A stretch of 5,842 nt of DNA, taken from IMG/VR virus record IMGVR_UViG_2695420676_000007; one strand, written 5' to 3'. Positions 401 through 3,690 of the stretch are shown here, in pieces. A program made the position numbers and the translations under genes. The notes under the pieces were generated by a model, which was not told the origin of the DNA, did not search any database, and saw nothing but the letters and a program-made list of their open reading frames with translations. The number at the start of each line of letters is the position of its first letter. The stretch's first letter is position 1. This DNA comes from a virus (taxonomy: Duplodnaviria; Heunggongvirae; Uroviricota; Caudoviricetes).

Positions 401-426
401 AAAAAAACCCGCTCGACGGCGGGTTT
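401..426 (-). terminator. Rho-independent terminator, minus-strand orientation
   Basis: Perfect 8-bp stem (AAACCCGC / GCGGGTTT, 5 GC pairs) with a 6-nt loop. On the minus strand the hairpin is followed by a run of 7 T (401..407 are A on the + strand); on the + strand only TTT then AAG follows, so it is oriented for minus-strand transcripts. Confidence 0.7.
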
Positions 427-611
427 AAGTTGTGTGGCGAAGTAACCACTCTTGAGAGCATATCTGATTATTTACGATTGTAAATAATATATTCCCCCCA
501 ATAATTAGATTGAGAAAACATTACCATATTGATAATAAGGCAATTGACATAATTATAAAAATCATTCTTGGTTGATTTTAAAACAACAAATGCACGATAT
601 TTACCCAATCA

Positions 612-640
612 TTGATGAATACATCTCTAAATGTTATAAA
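612..640 (+). promoter_or_regulatory. Candidate sigma70 promoter for the 691..1962 gene
   Basis: -35 TTGATG (612..617), 17-bp spacer, extended -10 TGtTATAAA (632..640); AGGA Shine-Dalgarno at 677..680 before the ATG at 691. AT-rich context gives many promoter-like hexamers, so this is a prediction only. Confidence 0.4.
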
Positions 641-690
641 TTTATTGTTTTTCTAAAGATAACTCTCATTCATATCAGGAAAGATAAAAA

Positions 691-1962
691 ATGTCAGACA
701 TAAAAAATATACTAAAATGCATGTACTTTGATAAAAATAGATACTCAAACTTTGGCTCCGTAATTAAAAGTCTAGAGATAAATGGATTTCGAGGAATAAA
801 AAAACTAACATTAAATATAAATTTTCCGGTAACTGCAATATCAGGGCTAAACGGCGCTGGGAAAAGCACTCTTGGGCAGTTAGCAATATGCGCATATAAA
901 AAACCAGTTACAGCCCGTGAATATAAGAGATTATATATTAAAGATTTTTTCCCTGTATCTAAAGCCGATCCAGCCCCTTTCGATAATGACGCCAGTGTCA
1001 TTTATAAATATGAAACAAATGATTCAACGAAAACACAAGATGTGACTGTCACTCGCATAAAGTCTTCTTGGTCTGGATATAAAAGACAACCAGAAAGACA
1101 CTGTTTTTACATTGGTTTTACTGTCTATATTCCAAAAGTAGAACGTAGAGATATAAGTGTTTATGGCGGTAAAGACTTTGATTTAACAGAGAGAAGAAGC
1201 GTCGACCATTCAGTAATATTGAAGATGGCAAAAATAATAGGTCATCCATATGATGATATCGCATTCCAAGGAATTTCTCATAGAGCACGTCGTTCAGAAA
1301 TTGGTATTGTTGAAAGACTTGGGTATTCTTATTCTGAAAATAACATGGGGTTTGGCGAAGGAAGAGTTCTTTATACGGTTGATATGCTTGAAACAGCTCC
1401 AGAGCAAAGTCTTTTCGTACTAGAAGAACCAGAAACATCTCTTCATGAAAGCGCACAGTATGAATTTGCAAAATATTTAATGGAAGTATGTCAACGTAGA
1501 AAACATCAAATAATATTATCAACACACTCAAGTGTGATATTAAATGCTTTACCTCCTGATGCACGAAAATTACTTATTAGAGATCAGACTGGTGTCTATA
1601 TCAAAGATGGAATTTCAACAACTCATGTGAGATCAATACTGTCTGATGGGCAGTTTAAAGGGCTGCATATTTGCGTAGAAGACCAGTTTGCAAAAGTTTT
1701 ACTTAGTGAAGTAATTAGAGCAAAGCGGAGAGACATTCTTAAATCCATTCAAATCACTGATATTGGAGATAAAGATGCAGTCCGACAAGCAGTCGAGGTA
1801 TTCAAGAAAGCAGGCCTTAATGTTATTGCCGTAAGAGATGCAGATGTTGGAGAAAACATTAAAGATGATTTATTTTCTTTCCCTGGCAATAGGCCACCAG
1901 AAGTAGAAGTATTTCAACATGAGGAAGTAAAAAAAATTCCTCTACAAGGAGTATCATATTGA
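691..1962 (+). CDS. ABC-type P-loop ATPase (AAA_21/OLD-like) fused to a short C-terminal TOPRIM-like domain; candidate anti-phage defence or exclusion protein; 3' end apparently frameshifted
   Basis: 423-aa ORF with Walker A GLNGAGKST (aa 52-60, nt 844..870), Walker B LFVLEEPETSLH (aa 241-252, Asp replaced by Glu at 245) and H-loop ILSTHS (aa 275-280). The C-terminal region (aa ~320-390) has ICVED (E330) and VRDADVGEN (D383-x-D385), reminiscent of the TOPRIM Glu...DxD signature of OLD/DUF4435 nucleases. It lies on the strand opposite to all flanking prophage genes, in markedly AT-rich DNA with its own promoter and RBS. Confidence 0.85.
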   Translation: MSDIKNILKCMYFDKNRYSNFGSVIKSLEINGFRGIKKLTLNINFPVTAISGLNGAGKSTLGQLAICAYKKPVTAREYKRLYIKDFFPVSKADPAPFDNDASVIYKYETNDSTKTQDVTVTRIKSSWSGYKRQPERHCFYIGFTVYIPKVERRDISVYGGKDFDLTERRSVDHSVILKMAKIIGHPYDDIAFQGISHRARRSEIGIVERLGYSYSENNMGFGEGRVLYTVDMLETAPEQSLFVLEEPETSLHESAQYEFAKYLMEVCQRRKHQIILSTHSSVILNALPPDARKLLIRDQTGVYIKDGISTTHVRSILSDGQFKGLHICVEDQFAKVLLSEVIRAKRRDILKSIQITDIGDKDAVRQAVEVFKKAGLNVIAVRDADVGENIKDDLFSFPGNRPPEVEVFQHEEVKKIPLQGVSY

Positions 1963-2143
1963 TTTTGATTGGTTAATAAAAAAGGAAGGGATTAGTGATC
2001 ATCACAATTACACTCAAGCAATTGCTAAAGAAGCAGAATGTGAGGAGGAAGTAATTAGAACTTTAGCAATAAAAAAATATATTGAAATTATTGATGAGAA
2101 ATTTGACCCACTTATTACAAATATAGTAAGCAAAATAAAATAA
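1931..2143 (+). other. +1-frame open continuation of the ATPase gene (KKFLYKEYHIDFDWLIKKEGISDHHNYTQAIAKEAECEEEVIRTLAIKKYIEIIDEKFDPLITNIVSKIK*)
   Basis: The +1 frame is open from just after a TAA at 1928..1930 through to TAA at 2141..2143 (71 codons, no ATG). It begins inside the A8 run at 1929..1936, 30 nt before the annotated stop. An open frame of this length in roughly 30-35% GC DNA is unlikely by chance. Confidence 0.5.
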
Positions 2144-2153
2144 CAAACCAGCA

Positions 2154-2188
2154 GGCGCTAATTACTAAAAACCTTGTACATTAGCGCC
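2154..2188. repeat. Perfect 9-bp inverted repeat (GGCGCTAAT-N17-ATTAGCGCC) between the convergent ATPase and Q genes; possible terminator or operator
   Basis: Arms at 2154..2162 and 2180..2188 are exact reverse complements. On the minus strand a T-rich tract (TTTGTTATTTTATTTT) follows after a 6-nt gap; on the + strand no T-run follows. It lies 11 nt after the extended-frame stop at 2143. Confidence 0.45.
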
Positions 2189-2315
2189 ACCCTCAAATAA
2201 ATCAGTGGTTATTAAATCCCCACAAAAACATTAATATAAAGCACAAACAGTCCACCCTCCTTAATTTCATGCTAACAATACAAATTAAAAATCCAGATAC
2301 TCATAAAATATCTTT

Positions 2316-2687
2316 CTAGATATTTGAGTCCATTTCCAATTCTATTTCTAACATTATCAACATACCTTCAATGATGCCTTCTGCCTTTTGCAATAAGCGC
2401 CCAACCCAGCAATCAGAACGCCCATGTTTACGGGCAAGCGCCATAAACGTCATACCACCTACATAATAATCTACTAATAAATCGTGCAAATCGCTGTTGT
2501 TCTTTTTCAGACGGGCCATGCACCCGCAAATGATCATCGCGTCATCGTCACAACATTGCGGGCGGGATTTTACTTTTGAAGGAAGTAATCCCTTAAAACC
2601 GGCAGCAATGGACGACCAGGTCACATCCTCATGATTATTAGCCGCCCATGCCCCCCAACGTTCAAGAACCATTTGAATATCACGCAT
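2316..2687 (-). CDS. quuD: Late-gene antitermination protein Q (short QuuD/phage-82-type Q)
   Basis: The translation from the ATG at 2687 ([62 protein letters not shown]...) matches my recollection of the DLP12 QuuD antiterminator family, including the Cys-rich zinc motif. The six-frame start at 2702 is a TTG; the ATG at 2687 is preceded by GGAGGA with 6-nt spacing. Stop TAG at 2316..2318. Confidence 0.85.
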
Positions 2688-2704
2688 CAACTTCCTCCAC
2701 AAAA

Positions 2705-3385
2705 TCAGGCCAGCACGCCTATTGCCAGCGCACGATCGATAAAACGAAATATCAGCTCCAACTGGGAGCCATACTTCTCTTCAAATGCCACGGTATCCGC
2801 ATGCAGCTCGTCGTGATGCTTTCTGCACAAAGGCAACACAAAGAGGTCATGCGCTTTTGTACCCATTCCACCCTGACCGTGGCCTATCAGGTGGTGGGGA
2901 TCATCAGCAGGCTTTCCACAACATGCACACGGCTGTGTCTTAACCCAGCGCGTGTACTTTTCGTTAACCCAGCGGCGACGTTTTGGGCGTAACATAAAAG
3001 ACTCCGGCGACTCCGGATCCACTTTCAGCGCCAGCACCTTTTTCACTTTATCCTGGATGATGCTGGTGGCAGGAACCGAAGGAACAAGGTCACTTTCCCG
3101 GGTGACAGACGGCACAACAGGCTTCGGTAATCTCAGTGCCTTACGGGCTGCACTTTCCGGCAAGGCACCCGCCAGGTCATTACGAACCAGCCACCAGCAC
3201 AGTTCCGGCATTGTCACAACGTGACTGTCATCAAAACCGAGATCCCGACGCACAACAGACAACACCCAGCGGGCACAGTTATCCGTTGCCATTGATTCCA
3301 GCCGTTCCGTGAACTGATCGCGCAGCTGGTTATCGCAGTGCCAGCACAGACGGATTGCGCCCGGAGCGTGTCGCATTGTGGTCAT
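2705..3385 (-). CDS. DUF968-like (YdfU-like) Cys/His-rich phage protein; putative zinc-binding nuclease-like protein of the nin region
   Basis: 226-aa ORF with motif [44 protein letters not shown], which I recall as typical of DUF968 proteins found just upstream of Q in E. coli prophages. The ATG at 3385 overlaps the stop of the upstream ORF (ATGA). Family name from memory, not verified. Confidence 0.7.
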
Positions 3386-3690
3386 GTTCTCGCTGTGCCA
3401 GTCGGAATGAGGCCACTGGCAGCCAGTAACCAGCTTTCAAGACATTCCACGCCACCAGCACGACGGATCACTGCCTCATTGCGGAACACGGCCCGAACGG
3501 CAGGATCATCCGCCAGCGGTTGTGATGCCGCCGGAACGGCGCCACTGGCGAAAGATGAATAACTTTCCGGCTCAGGCTCCAGCAGGACACGCCCCTGCAT
3601 AAACAGGGGCATCAGCTCTGAACCAGGCCTGAACAATACGATCCCCATACGCGGGGCAATTTCAGGGGTCAGTAGTGCTCTCACGGTCAC
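3382..3690 (-). CDS. Hypothetical protein (about 100 aa or shorter); start codon uncertain
   Basis: ORF exactly filling the gap between the KilA-N gene stop (3692..3694) and the DUF968 gene start, with an ATGA stop/start overlap at 3382..3385. The first codon at 3690 is GTG with no clear Shine-Dalgarno; internal ATGs exist. It could be a separate gene or the detached N-terminal part of the downstream protein. Confidence 0.4.
   Translation of the reverse strand: MTVRALLTPEIAPRMGIVLFRPGSELMPLFMQGRVLLEPEPESYSSFASGAVPAASQPLADDPAVRAVFRNEAVIRRAGGVECLESWLLAASGLIPTGTART

What the first reader, a model, noticed from the sequence alone, without database searches (positions are those of the whole stretch)
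1929..2143. Frameshift at an A8 homopolymer truncates the ATPase gene; +1 frame continues for about 70 codons
The annotated frame stops at 1960..1962, but the +1 frame opens inside the A8 run (1929..1936) and runs to 2143, encoding a protein-like, helix-prone tail. One fewer A would fuse the frames (...EEVKKFLYKEYHIDFDW...). This may be a homopolymer sequencing error, a genuine inactivating mutation, slipped-strand phase variation of a potentially toxic defence gene, or programmed slippage.
Basis: seen in the sequence. Interest (0 to 1): 0.7.

Follow-up and report, generated by a model that had tools for sequence, protein, structure and literature searches.

The report
Frameshifted prophage anti-phage nuclease gene
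One extra A in a run of seven A's has broken a prophage-borne anti-phage nuclease gene in this E. coli lineage; it is a real, inherited, ordinary loss-of-function mutation rather than a recoding signal or a dedicated on/off switch.

Summary
There is an A8 run at 1929..1936, frame 0 stops at 1960..1962 (423 aa), and the +1 frame stays open to 2143. Removing one A gives a 483-aa protein.

All 11 complete E. coli genomes carrying this 1.85-kb low-GC island have A7 and an intact 483-aa "ATP-dependent nuclease". Exact look-ups find A7 on 460 contigs, A8 on 13 (at least 24 in a second index) and A6 on 1. Relatives at 47-79% identity in many phyla are mostly 482-484 aa. They conserve the tail (invariant W427, H437, H438) but not the A-run.

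The protein is a stand-alone ABC-ATPase/Toprim (OLD-like) nuclease, and its best defence-model match is HEC-04. The frameshift removes 68 residues, about 4.5 confident helices packed after the Toprim core.

Within the window's own prophage, A7 copies match the consensus at every site over 5.8 kb. A8 copies differ only by the extra A plus a few private SNPs, so A8 is a recent, heritable, derived allele.

Other broken alleles of the gene also exist. No recoding signals were found. Verdict: genuine homopolymer-slippage pseudogene; low novelty.

The parts
691..2143 (+). Whole pseudogene: a stand-alone ABC-ATPase/Toprim (OLD-like, HEC-04-like) nuclease gene. The intact allele is 1452 nt and 483 aa with A7.
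   Evidence: All 11 complete E. coli genomes with the island annotate a 483-aa 'ATP-dependent nuclease' WP_032083250.1 here. The indel is mapped.
691..1962 (+). Frame-0 ORF as it stands in the window: 423 aa, made of native residues 1-415 plus 8 aberrant residues (IPLQGVSY), then TGA.
   Evidence: This exact product is found on at least 24 contigs and on 13 contigs by the cluster look-up.
844..870 (+). Walker A / P-loop G52-LNGAGKS-T60 (K58) of the ABC-type ATPase head. It is retained in the truncated product.
1678..1683 (+). Toprim acidic residues E330-D331 in the motif C-V-E-D. They are retained in the truncated product.
   Evidence: Invariant in the alignment (E326/D327 in P0004 numbering). 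Inferred by motif and position, not by a direct alignment, to be equivalent to HEC-04 E319, which is needed for defence.
1837..1845 (+). Toprim DxD motif D383-A-D385 within A-V-R-D-A-D-V-G. It is retained in the truncated product.
1929..1936 (+). A8 homopolymer, A7 in the intact allele. This is the site of the +1 A insertion.
   Evidence: A6 and A8 alleles both exist. The run is not conserved in orthologues.
1937..2143 (+). Stranded +1-frame tail: residues 416-483 of the intact protein plus TAA. It comprises about 4.5 helices following the Toprim core and contains invariant W427 (1970-1972) and D436-H437-H438 (1997-2005).
450..2300 (.). Low-GC island (25-37% GC against 46-61% in the flanks) that carries only this gene. 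It sits between the Q antiterminator gene and the late/lysis region of a lambdoid prophage, and the gene is oriented opposite to the phage genes.
   Evidence: Composition. Gene context. Present in 11 of 5426 complete E. coli genomes and in no deposited phage.

Best explanation
The gene is a stand-alone defence-type nuclease: an ABC-ATPase head fused to a Toprim nuclease domain with a C-terminal helical region. It is OLD-like and most similar to the PADLOC HEC-04 model. It is carried as an accessory gene in a lambdoid prophage of E. coli.

In the lineage sampled by this contig, replication slippage added one A to a 7-A run that encodes Lys414-Lys415. Translation therefore leaves the native frame after residue 415, reads 8 wrong residues and stops. 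The product keeps the ATPase head and the Toprim acidic residues. It loses 68 conserved residues (about 4.5 helices, including the invariant W427 and D-H-H 436-438) that pack after the Toprim core.

What is shown and what is inferred:
- Shown: the allele is real, heritable, derived and rare.
- Inferred: the truncated protein has lost nuclease and defence function, so this is a loss-of-function pseudogene allele.
- Inferred: it persists because losing a costly or toxic accessory defence gene is neutral or mildly beneficial.

The A-run is a mutational hot spot and not a designed signal.
For: 1. Intact state.
- 11 of 11 complete genomes have A7 and a 483-aa CDS.
- Exact look-ups give 460 contigs with the A7 product, 13 with A8 and 1 with A6.
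- Homologues at 57-78% identity, and at 47-79% in the 30 species loci, are nearly all 482-484 aa and cover about 100% of the fused protein.

2. Real and heritable.
- The exact 423-aa product occurs on at least 24 contigs from NCBI isolate assemblies, Logan and an ENA metagenome.
- A8 copies include sub-lineages with private SNPs; L010, L012 and L014 share 2870A/2872C/2882G.

3. Derived and recent.
- Contigs with the window's exact KilA-N protein carry either 483 or 423 aa.
- The five A7 copies match the consensus at every site over 5842 bp.
- Each A8 copy equals that consensus plus the extra A and one or more private changes: up to four substitutions and, in some copies, the C7 insertion.

4. 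Functional importance of the tail.
- It holds invariant and nearly invariant residues and has pLDDT above 90.
- In class 2 OLD, side chains from both the Toprim and the helical domain form the active site (PMC7049728).

5. Gene identity.
- PADLOC HEC-04 3.9e-47 and ATPase-Toprim_I-B 2.5e-22, the latter covering 238-470.
- HEC-04 defends against phages, needs its Walker A and E/D/D residues, and induction was avoided because of apparent toxicity (bioRxiv 10.1101/2024.01.29.577857).

6. Hot-spot behaviour.
- Indel rates rise exponentially with run length (PMC8510543).
- Other broken alleles exist: A8 at the 2071 run (464 aa, 2 contigs), a 366-aa restart product (8 contigs) and a 418-aa form (4 contigs).
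Against: - Loss of function is inferred, not measured. The truncated protein keeps Walker A, E330/D331 and D383/D385, so residual or altered activity cannot be excluded.
- No reads were available, so heterogeneity of tract length within the sample could not be examined.
- The A8 allele is seen in at least two prophage contexts: the window's group, and L005/L011 with two island SNPs and a deleted right arm. This means either repeated slippage or recombination after one event, and I could not decide which.
- A second length-variable tract (C6/C7 at 494..499) changes state within the A8 set only. Simple one-off decay does not predict this.
Confidence: 0.8

Rival explanations
1. Adaptive phase variation (contingency locus). 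The A-run, perhaps together with the upstream C-run, switches a toxic prophage defence gene off and on by reversible slippage. A8 would be the OFF state.
For: - Three tract lengths exist in nature: A6, A7 and A8.
- A8 occurs in more than one prophage context.
- A second tract, C6/C7 at 494..499, varies only among A8 copies. It lies in the spacer of a weak promoter-like match, TTGTAA-N16-AATAAT.
- For the related HEC-04, induction was avoided because of apparent toxicity, so an OFF switch could be useful.
Against: - About 95% of copies are A7.
- No A7 copy carries the A8 sub-lineage SNPs, so no reversion is visible.
- The run is absent from the closest orthologues (Kluyvera and Serratia read GTT AAA GAA TTT) and from most others.
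- The Lys-Lys it encodes is not conserved.
- The gene is also broken at other places, as expected for undirected decay.
- Seven or eight A's is short compared with classical contingency tracts (my own knowledge), and E. coli has active mismatch repair.
- Promoter-like matches are not enriched over shuffles (12 found against 9.1 +/- 3.1).
Confidence: 0.1
2. Sequencing or assembly error. The isolate really has A7, and the extra A is a homopolymer miscall in a draft assembly.
For: - The contig is a short draft contig.
- The deposited record has an unresolved N at 3425 that creates a false 10-bp gap in the DUF968 gene, so the assembly is imperfect.
- Homopolymers are classic error sites.
Against: - The identical A8 product is found on at least 24 contigs from different assemblies and assemblers: isolate assemblies, third-party re-assemblies, Logan and a metagenome contig whose k141-style name suggests MEGAHIT.
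- The identical contig is seen in 3 samples.
- A8 copies share lineage-specific SNPs.
- All A7 copies of the same prophage agree among themselves.
Confidence: 0.04
3. Programmed recoding. From A8, both a 423-aa and a full-length product are made on purpose, by +1/-2 ribosomal frameshifting or by transcriptional slippage.
For: - tRNA-Lys on A-runs is slip-prone, and A-runs can cause RNA polymerase slippage (PMC5009743 was listed but not read; PMC1088944).
- A GAGGA Shine-Dalgarno-like sequence lies just 5' of the run.
Against: - The frameshifted arrangement is a rare derived allele, not the conserved state.
- There is no stable RNA structure downstream (z +0.9 and +0.7).
- Rescue needs loss of one A. 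E. coli RNA polymerase gave about 10% deletion-type rescue on T8 and none on the poly(A) runs tested (PMC6260861).
- Selection against runs becomes evident only from about 9 nt (PMC1088944).
- The A-site codon after a +1 slip is a common Lys codon, not a slow or stop codon (read from the sequence).
Confidence: 0.02

Closest known systems
[quoted passage not shown]
   Same: - It is the best defence-model hit: E 3.9e-47, residues 5-410 on profile positions 7-403 of 494.
- Same architecture in a single polypeptide.
- The Walker A lysine and the E / DxD acidic residues that HEC-04 needs for defence are invariant here.
   Different: - The best aligned stretch stops before the tail.
- The tested HEC-04 came from inside an Hma system, whereas this gene is an accessory gene of a lambdoid prophage.
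- No phage assay exists for this subfamily.
- No curated NCBIfam model reaches its cut-off.
IbfA of IncI1 plasmids R64 / pUA1135 (ATPase + TOPRIM, abortive-infection-like interference with P22-like phages and others)
   Same: - It is reported as a HEC-04 homologue with the same two-domain layout (PMC12111858).
- It is carried on a mobile element of enterobacteria.
   Different: - Plasmid-borne relatives found by tblastn are only about 23% identical over residues 25-392 and do not align over the tail.
- That these hits are IbfA is my inference from host, plasmid type and annotation.
Class 1 OLD-family nucleases (P2 Old; Thermus scotoductus OLD, PDB 6P74)
   Same: - Stand-alone gene, N-terminal ABC ATPase and C-terminal Toprim.
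- It is prophage-borne, like P2 old.
- 6p74 is the best PDB sequence hit (2e-11).
   Different: - Sequence similarity is limited to the ATPase signature region.
- TsOLD lacks a C-terminal helical bundle, whereas this protein has about 4.5 helices after the Toprim core.
- The protein is shorter than P2 Old (586 aa, from my own knowledge).
PARIS AriA/AriB and class 2 OLD (Gabija GajA; B. pseudomallei OLD C-terminal region, PDB 6NK8)
   Same: - That means a Toprim core plus a following helical region, as in these proteins.
- AriA and GajA HMMs hit the ATPase part.
   Different: - PARIS has two separate proteins, and Gabija needs the GajB helicase.
- Here there is one gene with no conserved neighbour.
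Homopolymer-slippage pseudogenes and transcriptional-slippage rescue (for example Citrobacter rodentium tssM, endosymbiont poly(A) genes)
   Same: A coding A-run gained one base and split the ORF. In principle, polymerase or ribosome slippage could restore some full-length product.
   Different: The tssM paper (PMC4256274) was listed but not read. From my own knowledge, known rescued cases have longer runs of at least 9-11. Here A8 needs a deletion-type slip, which E. coli RNA polymerase did not show on poly(A).

Membership tests
OLD-family (ABC ATPase + Toprim) nucleases | N-terminal ABC-type ATPase head with a Walker A motif and ABC-like motifs | tested here: met
   [not shown]
OLD-family (ABC ATPase + Toprim) nucleases | C-terminal Toprim fold with a conserved glutamate and a DxD metal-binding motif | tested here: met
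   [not shown]
OLD-family, Class 1 | Stand-alone gene with no adjacent UvrD-like helicase (class 2) and no reverse transcriptase or ncRNA (class 3) | tested here: met
   The island holds only this gene, and its neighbours are phage Q and a 64-aa ORF. Neighbourhoods in seven other species are unrelated to one another by inspection of the flanking ORF translations; no domain scan was run on them. The class definition comes from PMC10568477.
OLD-family (ABC ATPase + Toprim) nucleases | ATP-dependent nuclease activity | not testable with these tools
   This needs biochemistry. The RefSeq name 'ATP-dependent nuclease' is an annotation only.
HEC-04 / IbfA defence proteins | Significant match to the HEC-04 profile in a single ATPase-TOPRIM polypeptide | tested here: met
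   PDLC04149 HEC-04 at E 3.9e-47 and 159 bits, covering residues 5-410. The tail lies outside the best stretch.
HEC-04 / IbfA defence proteins | Close sequence relationship to the experimentally studied members | tested here: not met
   Plasmid-borne relatives (presumed IbfA) are about 23% identical over residues 25-392. I did not have the sequence of the tested HEC-04 protein.
HEC-04 / IbfA defence proteins | Protection against phages that depends on Walker A and the E/D/D residues | not testable with these tools
   This was shown for HEC-04 only. It needs plaque assays with the A7 and A8 alleles.
Phase-variable contingency locus | Tract-length polymorphism among close relatives | tested here: met
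   A6 on 1 contig, A7 on 460 and A8 on 13. A7 and A8 both occur within one near-identical prophage.
Phase-variable contingency locus | Frequent, reversible switching with both states common and interleaved on the tree | tested here: inconclusive
   A8 is about 3-5% of copies. No A7 copy carries A8-lineage SNPs. There are too few informative sites to build a tree, and host phylogeny is not available.
Phase-variable contingency locus | Repeat tract maintained by selection, that is, conserved in orthologues | tested here: not met
   Kluyvera and Serratia (79% identity) read GTT AAA GAA TTT. Most of the 30 loci have no run at this position, and KK is not conserved.
Phase-variable contingency locus | Tract-length heterogeneity within a culture or sample | not testable with these tools
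   No reads were available.
Programmed frameshift / transcriptional-slippage gene | The split-frame arrangement is the conserved state in homologues | tested here: not met
   11 of 11 complete genomes and essentially all homologues have a single continuous ORF.
Programmed frameshift / transcriptional-slippage gene | A stimulatory element next to the slip site, such as a downstream stem-loop or pseudoknot | tested here: not met
   Downstream 60-81 nt fold no better than shuffles (z +0.90 and +0.67). There is no Rfam match in the window.
Programmed frameshift / transcriptional-slippage gene | Measurable production of the trans-frame product | not testable with these tools
   The literature indicates no deletion-type rescue by E. 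coli RNA polymerase on poly(A) runs up to this length (PMC6260861). A Western blot is needed.

The most novel reading that the evidence does not exclude
The A7/A8 run in the coding region, together with the C6/C7 run about 190 nt upstream that lies in a possible promoter spacer, acts as a reversible two-tract switch. It lets E. coli lysogens turn a toxic prophage-encoded OLD-like defence nuclease off and on. That would be contingency-locus behaviour of a kind that is well known in Haemophilus, Neisseria and Campylobacter but is uncommon for defence genes in E. coli (my own knowledge).
Probability: 0.07. Interest if true: 0.55.

Novelty: new member of a known kind. Interest (0 to 1): 0.2.

Why it matters
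Mostly it matters for annotation. The 423-aa "AAA family ATPase" entries in the databases are a frameshifted allele of a 483-aa stand-alone ATPase-Toprim nuclease. The stranded tail belongs to that gene.

It also adds a small data point to a broader pattern. This prophage-borne defence-type gene shows several independent broken alleles (about 6% of sampled contigs), with homopolymer runs among the break points. That fits defence genes being costly and frequently lost.

The intact family is worth biochemical attention in its own right:
- It is strikingly conserved, at 47-79% identity across Proteobacteria and Bacteroidota.
- It has no curated NCBIfam model.
- It has an invariant D-H-H motif in a helical extension after the Toprim core.

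That interest is separate from the frameshift.

Tried and rejected
1. **"Second lesion, decaying prophage" — retracted.** Early on I read the 10-bp gap at about 3424, which splits the DUF968 gene, as a real deletion shared with metagenome contig L013. That is wrong. The deposited contig has a single N at 3425, and the window shows it as A; this is the only difference between the window and the record. L013 simply diverges at 3388, a mosaic junction.

2. **"A8 on three independent prophage backgrounds" — weakened.** L006's divergent right flank comes from an assembly (GCA_000356905.1) that also holds a separate contig, L061, with the window-type right flank. Two co-resident prophages or repeat resolution may explain it. 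Only L005/L011 remain clearly distinct.

I reached A7 copies of the same prophage through the window's KilA-N protein instead.

4. **No match to the island in 50,697 deposited phage genomes**.

5. **No Rfam family in the window**.

6. **No RNA structure downstream of the tract**.

7. **No NCBIfam model above its cut-off**.

9. **Tract-1 slip products are not in the collection.** The N-terminal fragments predicted for +/-1 slips at the 798..804 run were not found. The cause of the 366-aa and 418-aa N-terminally disrupted alleles therefore remains unknown.
Full report
**1. The observation**

The window is a whole 5842-bp draft contig of an E. coli isolate (GCA_001284985.1, CYDJ01000056.1).
- Bases 1929..1936 are eight A's flanked by T.
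- The ORF 691..1962 encodes 423 aa. V413 is GTA at 1927-1929, K414 and K415 follow, then eight residues (IPLQGVSY) and TGA at 1960..1962.
- The +1 frame is open from 1931 to TAA at 2141..2143 and has no ATG, GTG or TTG, so it cannot start on its own.
- A 68-codon stop-free run arises in 8.6e-4 of shuffles. A 60-codon off-frame run also exists inside the gene, so the comparative data below are what make the case.

**2. What the intact state is**

The 1.85-kb low-GC island (25-37% GC against 46-61% around it) is present in 11 of 5426 complete E. coli genomes at 99.7% identity or better.
- In all 11 the match is one base shorter.
- Base-by-base comparison places that difference in the A-run: A7 in the relatives, A8 in the window.
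- All 11 annotate one 483-aa CDS, "ATP-dependent nuclease" (WP_032083250.1 in ten, WP_126328009.1 in NCTC9041).
- Exact-sequence look-ups find the A7 product on 460 contigs, A8 on 13 and A6 on 1. A9 and A10 are not found.
- A homology search returned 736 relatives. Those at 57-78% identity (Klebsiella, Vibrio, Pseudomonas, Aeromonas, Shewanella and many metagenomic sequences) are nearly all 482-484 aa and cover about 100% of the fused query.

The opposite holds.

**3. The tail is conserved; the tract is not**

In an alignment of 48 family members, the part encoded after the tract contains invariant W427, H437, H438, I460 and F471 and about ten nearly invariant positions, including D436 (a D-H-H motif). 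These are full-length numbers, equal to the P0004 numbering plus 4.

The Lys-Lys that produces the A-run is variable (VKN, VKS, VSS, VQK). At the DNA level the closest non-E. coli orthologues (Kluyvera and Serratia, 79% identity) read GTT AAA GAA TTT, and most of the 30 loci from other species have no run there. The run is thus a by-product of an AT-rich, lysine-rich gene in the E. coli allele. The intact E. coli gene has three A7 runs.

**4. What the gene is**

- Pfam sees only the ATPase head: AAA_15, AAA_21, AAA_23 and SMC_N.
- PADLOC's best model is HEC-04 (3.9e-47, residues 5-410), followed by the retron-type ATPase-Toprim_I-B model (2.5e-22, residues 238-470) and AriA, GajA and PtuA models.
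- No NCBIfam model approaches its cut-off.
- An AlphaFold model of the intact protein (pLDDT 78.6, with the C-terminal 90 residues at 90-94) has an ABC-type head that matches SMC, Rad50, retron ATPases, PtuA, AriA, TsOLD, GajA and retron-Eco8 OLD.
- The Toprim acidic residues E330/D331 (C-V-E-D) and D383/D385 (R-D-A-D) are invariant.

The gene stands alone. In the window it is flanked by the phage Q gene (convergent) and a 64-aa ORF, and the neighbourhoods in other species are unrelated to each other by inspection of the flanking ORFs. By the published definition (single gene, no helicase, no reverse transcriptase; PMC10568477) it is a Class 1-type OLD-family protein. It differs from TsOLD in having a helical extension after the Toprim core (PMC7049728).

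HEC-04 is an experimentally tested single-gene defence. Its activity needs the Walker A lysine and the E/D/D metal site, and induction was avoided in the assays because of apparent toxicity (bioRxiv 10.1101/2024.01.29.577857). IbfA of R64/pUA1135 is a reported homologue (PMC12111858). The plasmid-borne relatives I found are only about 23% identical over residues 25-392, so the window's protein is a distinct branch.

**5. What the frameshift removes**

The frames diverge after residue 415. That point lies inside helix 108-118 of the domain model, which is P0004 407-417.
- Half of that helix and four further helices are lost. This is 68 of the 180 residues of the nuclease domain, all modelled at pLDDT 90-96.
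- In class 2 OLD, conserved side chains of both the Toprim and the helical domain build the active site.

I therefore infer that the truncated protein has lost nuclease and defence function, although it retains the ATPase head and the acidic Toprim residues. This step is inferred, not shown.

**6. Real mutation or artefact?**

The exact 423-aa product is on at least 24 contigs in 28 index blocks. They come from several isolate assemblies, third-party re-assemblies, Logan assemblies and an ENA metagenome, and the identical contig is seen in three samples. A systematic miscall is very unlikely to reproduce across these pipelines while all A7 copies agree with each other.

One caution emerged. 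The apparent 10-bp deletion at about 3424 that splits the DUF968 gene coincides with a single N at 3425 in the deposited record, which the window shows as A. It is therefore an unresolved assembly gap and not a second lesion. I withdrew my earlier idea of a decaying prophage.

**7. Origin of the A8 allele**

Looking up the window's exact KilA-N protein retrieved the same prophage both with a 483-aa gene (L052, L053, L054, L059, with L057 partial) and with a 423-aa gene (L055, L056 and the window).

Site by site over 5842 bp:
- The five A7 copies match the consensus at every position.
- Each A8 copy equals that consensus plus the extra A and one or more private changes: up to four substitutions and, in some copies, the C7 insertion.
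- L010, L012 and L014 share a patch at 2870/2872/2882.

A8 is thus a recent derived state on an otherwise identical A7 haplotype, followed by some diversification. That is the pattern of one slippage event spreading clonally, although repeated events on an identical background cannot be excluded.

A8 also occurs in L005/L011, which have two island SNPs (275A, 2071T) and a different right arm. L006 looked like a third background, but the same assembly contains a contig with the window-type right flank (L061), so it may reflect two co-resident prophages.

**8. One hot spot among several**

Exact look-ups of predicted products show other broken alleles:
- a +1 slip at the third A7 run (464 aa, 2 contigs);
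- a 366-aa restart product indicating an N-terminal disruption (8 contigs);
- a 418-aa N-terminally shortened form (4 contigs);
- the A6 allele at 1929 (1 contig).

Roughly 6% of sampled contigs carry a broken copy, through at least five different lesions. Indel rates rise exponentially with run length (PMC8510543). This fits undirected loss of an accessory, possibly costly gene, with homopolymers as the likeliest break points.

**9. Recoding**

- The sequence downstream of the tract folds no better than shuffles (z +0.90 and +0.67).
- Rfam finds nothing in the window.
- Rescue would need loss of one A in the transcript. With E. coli RNA polymerase, deletion-type rescue was about 10% on T8 and absent on the poly(A) runs tested, and no activity was detected below eight A's (PMC6260861).
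- Selection against coding runs becomes evident at about nine nucleotides in many bacteria (PMC1088944).

Trace +1/-2 ribosomal slippage on A-runs is possible but unproven here. The comparative data rule out a programmed arrangement.

**10. Phase variation**

Points in favour:
- three tract lengths occur in nature;
- A8 occurs in more than one context;
- for HEC-04, induction was avoided because of apparent toxicity;
- a second variable tract (C6/C7 at 494..499) changes state within the A8 set only. It is C7 in 6 of 10 A8 loci and 0 of 15 A7 loci, and it is homoplastic relative to the shared SNP patch.

That C-run lies in the spacer of a weak promoter-like match, but such matches are not enriched over shuffles.

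Points against:
- A7 dominates;
- no reversion is visible;
- the tract is not conserved in orthologues;
- other lesion types exist.

I give this reading about 0.1. It needs reads and a host phylogeny to settle.

**11. Verdict**

This is a genuine, heritable +1 A slippage mutation. It truncates a prophage-borne, stand-alone ABC-ATPase/Toprim (OLD-like, HEC-04-like) nuclease gene and most likely inactivates it (confidence 0.8). The phenomenon is ordinary. The gene family itself is under-characterised and moderately interesting. Interest 0.2.

Noticed in passing
window 3425 (ORFs 2705..3385 and 3382..3690, - strand): The DUF968 gene is one 329-aa ORF in relatives but appears split in the window by a 10-bp gap. 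The deposited contig has a single N exactly there, which the window shows as A. The split is therefore an unresolved assembly gap and not a mutation.
   Followed up: yes
window 494..499: This C6 run is C7 (one extra C) in 6 of 10 A8 loci and in none of 15 A7 loci. Its state differs between A8 copies that share a private SNP patch. It lies in the spacer of a weak promoter-like match, TTGTAA-N16-AATAAT (478..505), about 190 nt upstream of the ATG. The cause is unknown: mutator background, altered selection on expression, or noise.
   Followed up: partly
window 798..804 and 2071..2077; cluster members P0135, P0136, P0005, P0003: The same gene has other broken alleles in public data. They are a +1 slip at the 2071 A-run (464 aa, 2 contigs), a 366-aa restart product (8 contigs), a 418-aa N-terminally shortened form (4 contigs) and an A6 allele at 1929 (427 aa, 1 contig). 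The lesions behind the 366-aa and 418-aa forms were not identified.
   Followed up: partly
window 450..2300: A low-GC island carrying a single gene sits between the Q antiterminator gene (2316..2702, - strand) and the late/lysis genes. The gene is oriented against the phage genes and converges on Q, so late phage transcription would probably run antisense through it. The island is present in only 11 of 5426 complete E. coli genomes and in none of 50,697 deposited phage genomes.
   Followed up: partly
window 1921..1942: A perfect 6-bp inverted repeat, GAGGAA ... TTCCTC, brackets the A-run and puts it in the loop of a small hairpin. The 91-nt fold has z -1.8. GAGGA also resembles a Shine-Dalgarno sequence. 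The encoded residues are not conserved, so this is probably coincidence.
   Followed up: no
window 405..426, - strand: An intrinsic-terminator-like hairpin (AAACCCGCCGTCGAGCGGGTTT followed by a T-run) lies at the left edge of the island. It may be the phage late-operon terminator that Q-modified polymerase reads through.
   Followed up: no
window 2870, 2872, 2882 (DUF968 gene): Three clustered substitutions are shared by the window, L012 and L014 only. They look like a small recombination patch and mark a sub-lineage within the A8 copies.
   Followed up: no
L006 and L061 (both GCA_000356905.1): One assembly holds the A8 island joined to a divergent right arm (L006). It also holds a separate 2.5-kb contig with the window-type rusA-KilA-N-DUF968 segment (L061). 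This suggests two related lambdoid prophages in that genome, or an ambiguous repeat join.
   Followed up: partly
L031, L034, L048, L049 (other species): In several loci from other species, mostly metagenome-assembled genomes, the homologous ORF is interrupted or truncated although the tblastn match continues. These may be further pseudogenes or assembly errors.
   Followed up: no
window 1997..2005 (+1 frame) and alignment A1: The family is unusually conserved, at 47-79% identity from Enterobacteria to Desulfovibrio, Rhizobium and Bacteroidota. It has an invariant H-H within a D-H-H motif and an invariant W in the helical extension after the Toprim core. No NCBIfam model or solved structure covers this extension.
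   Followed up: partly
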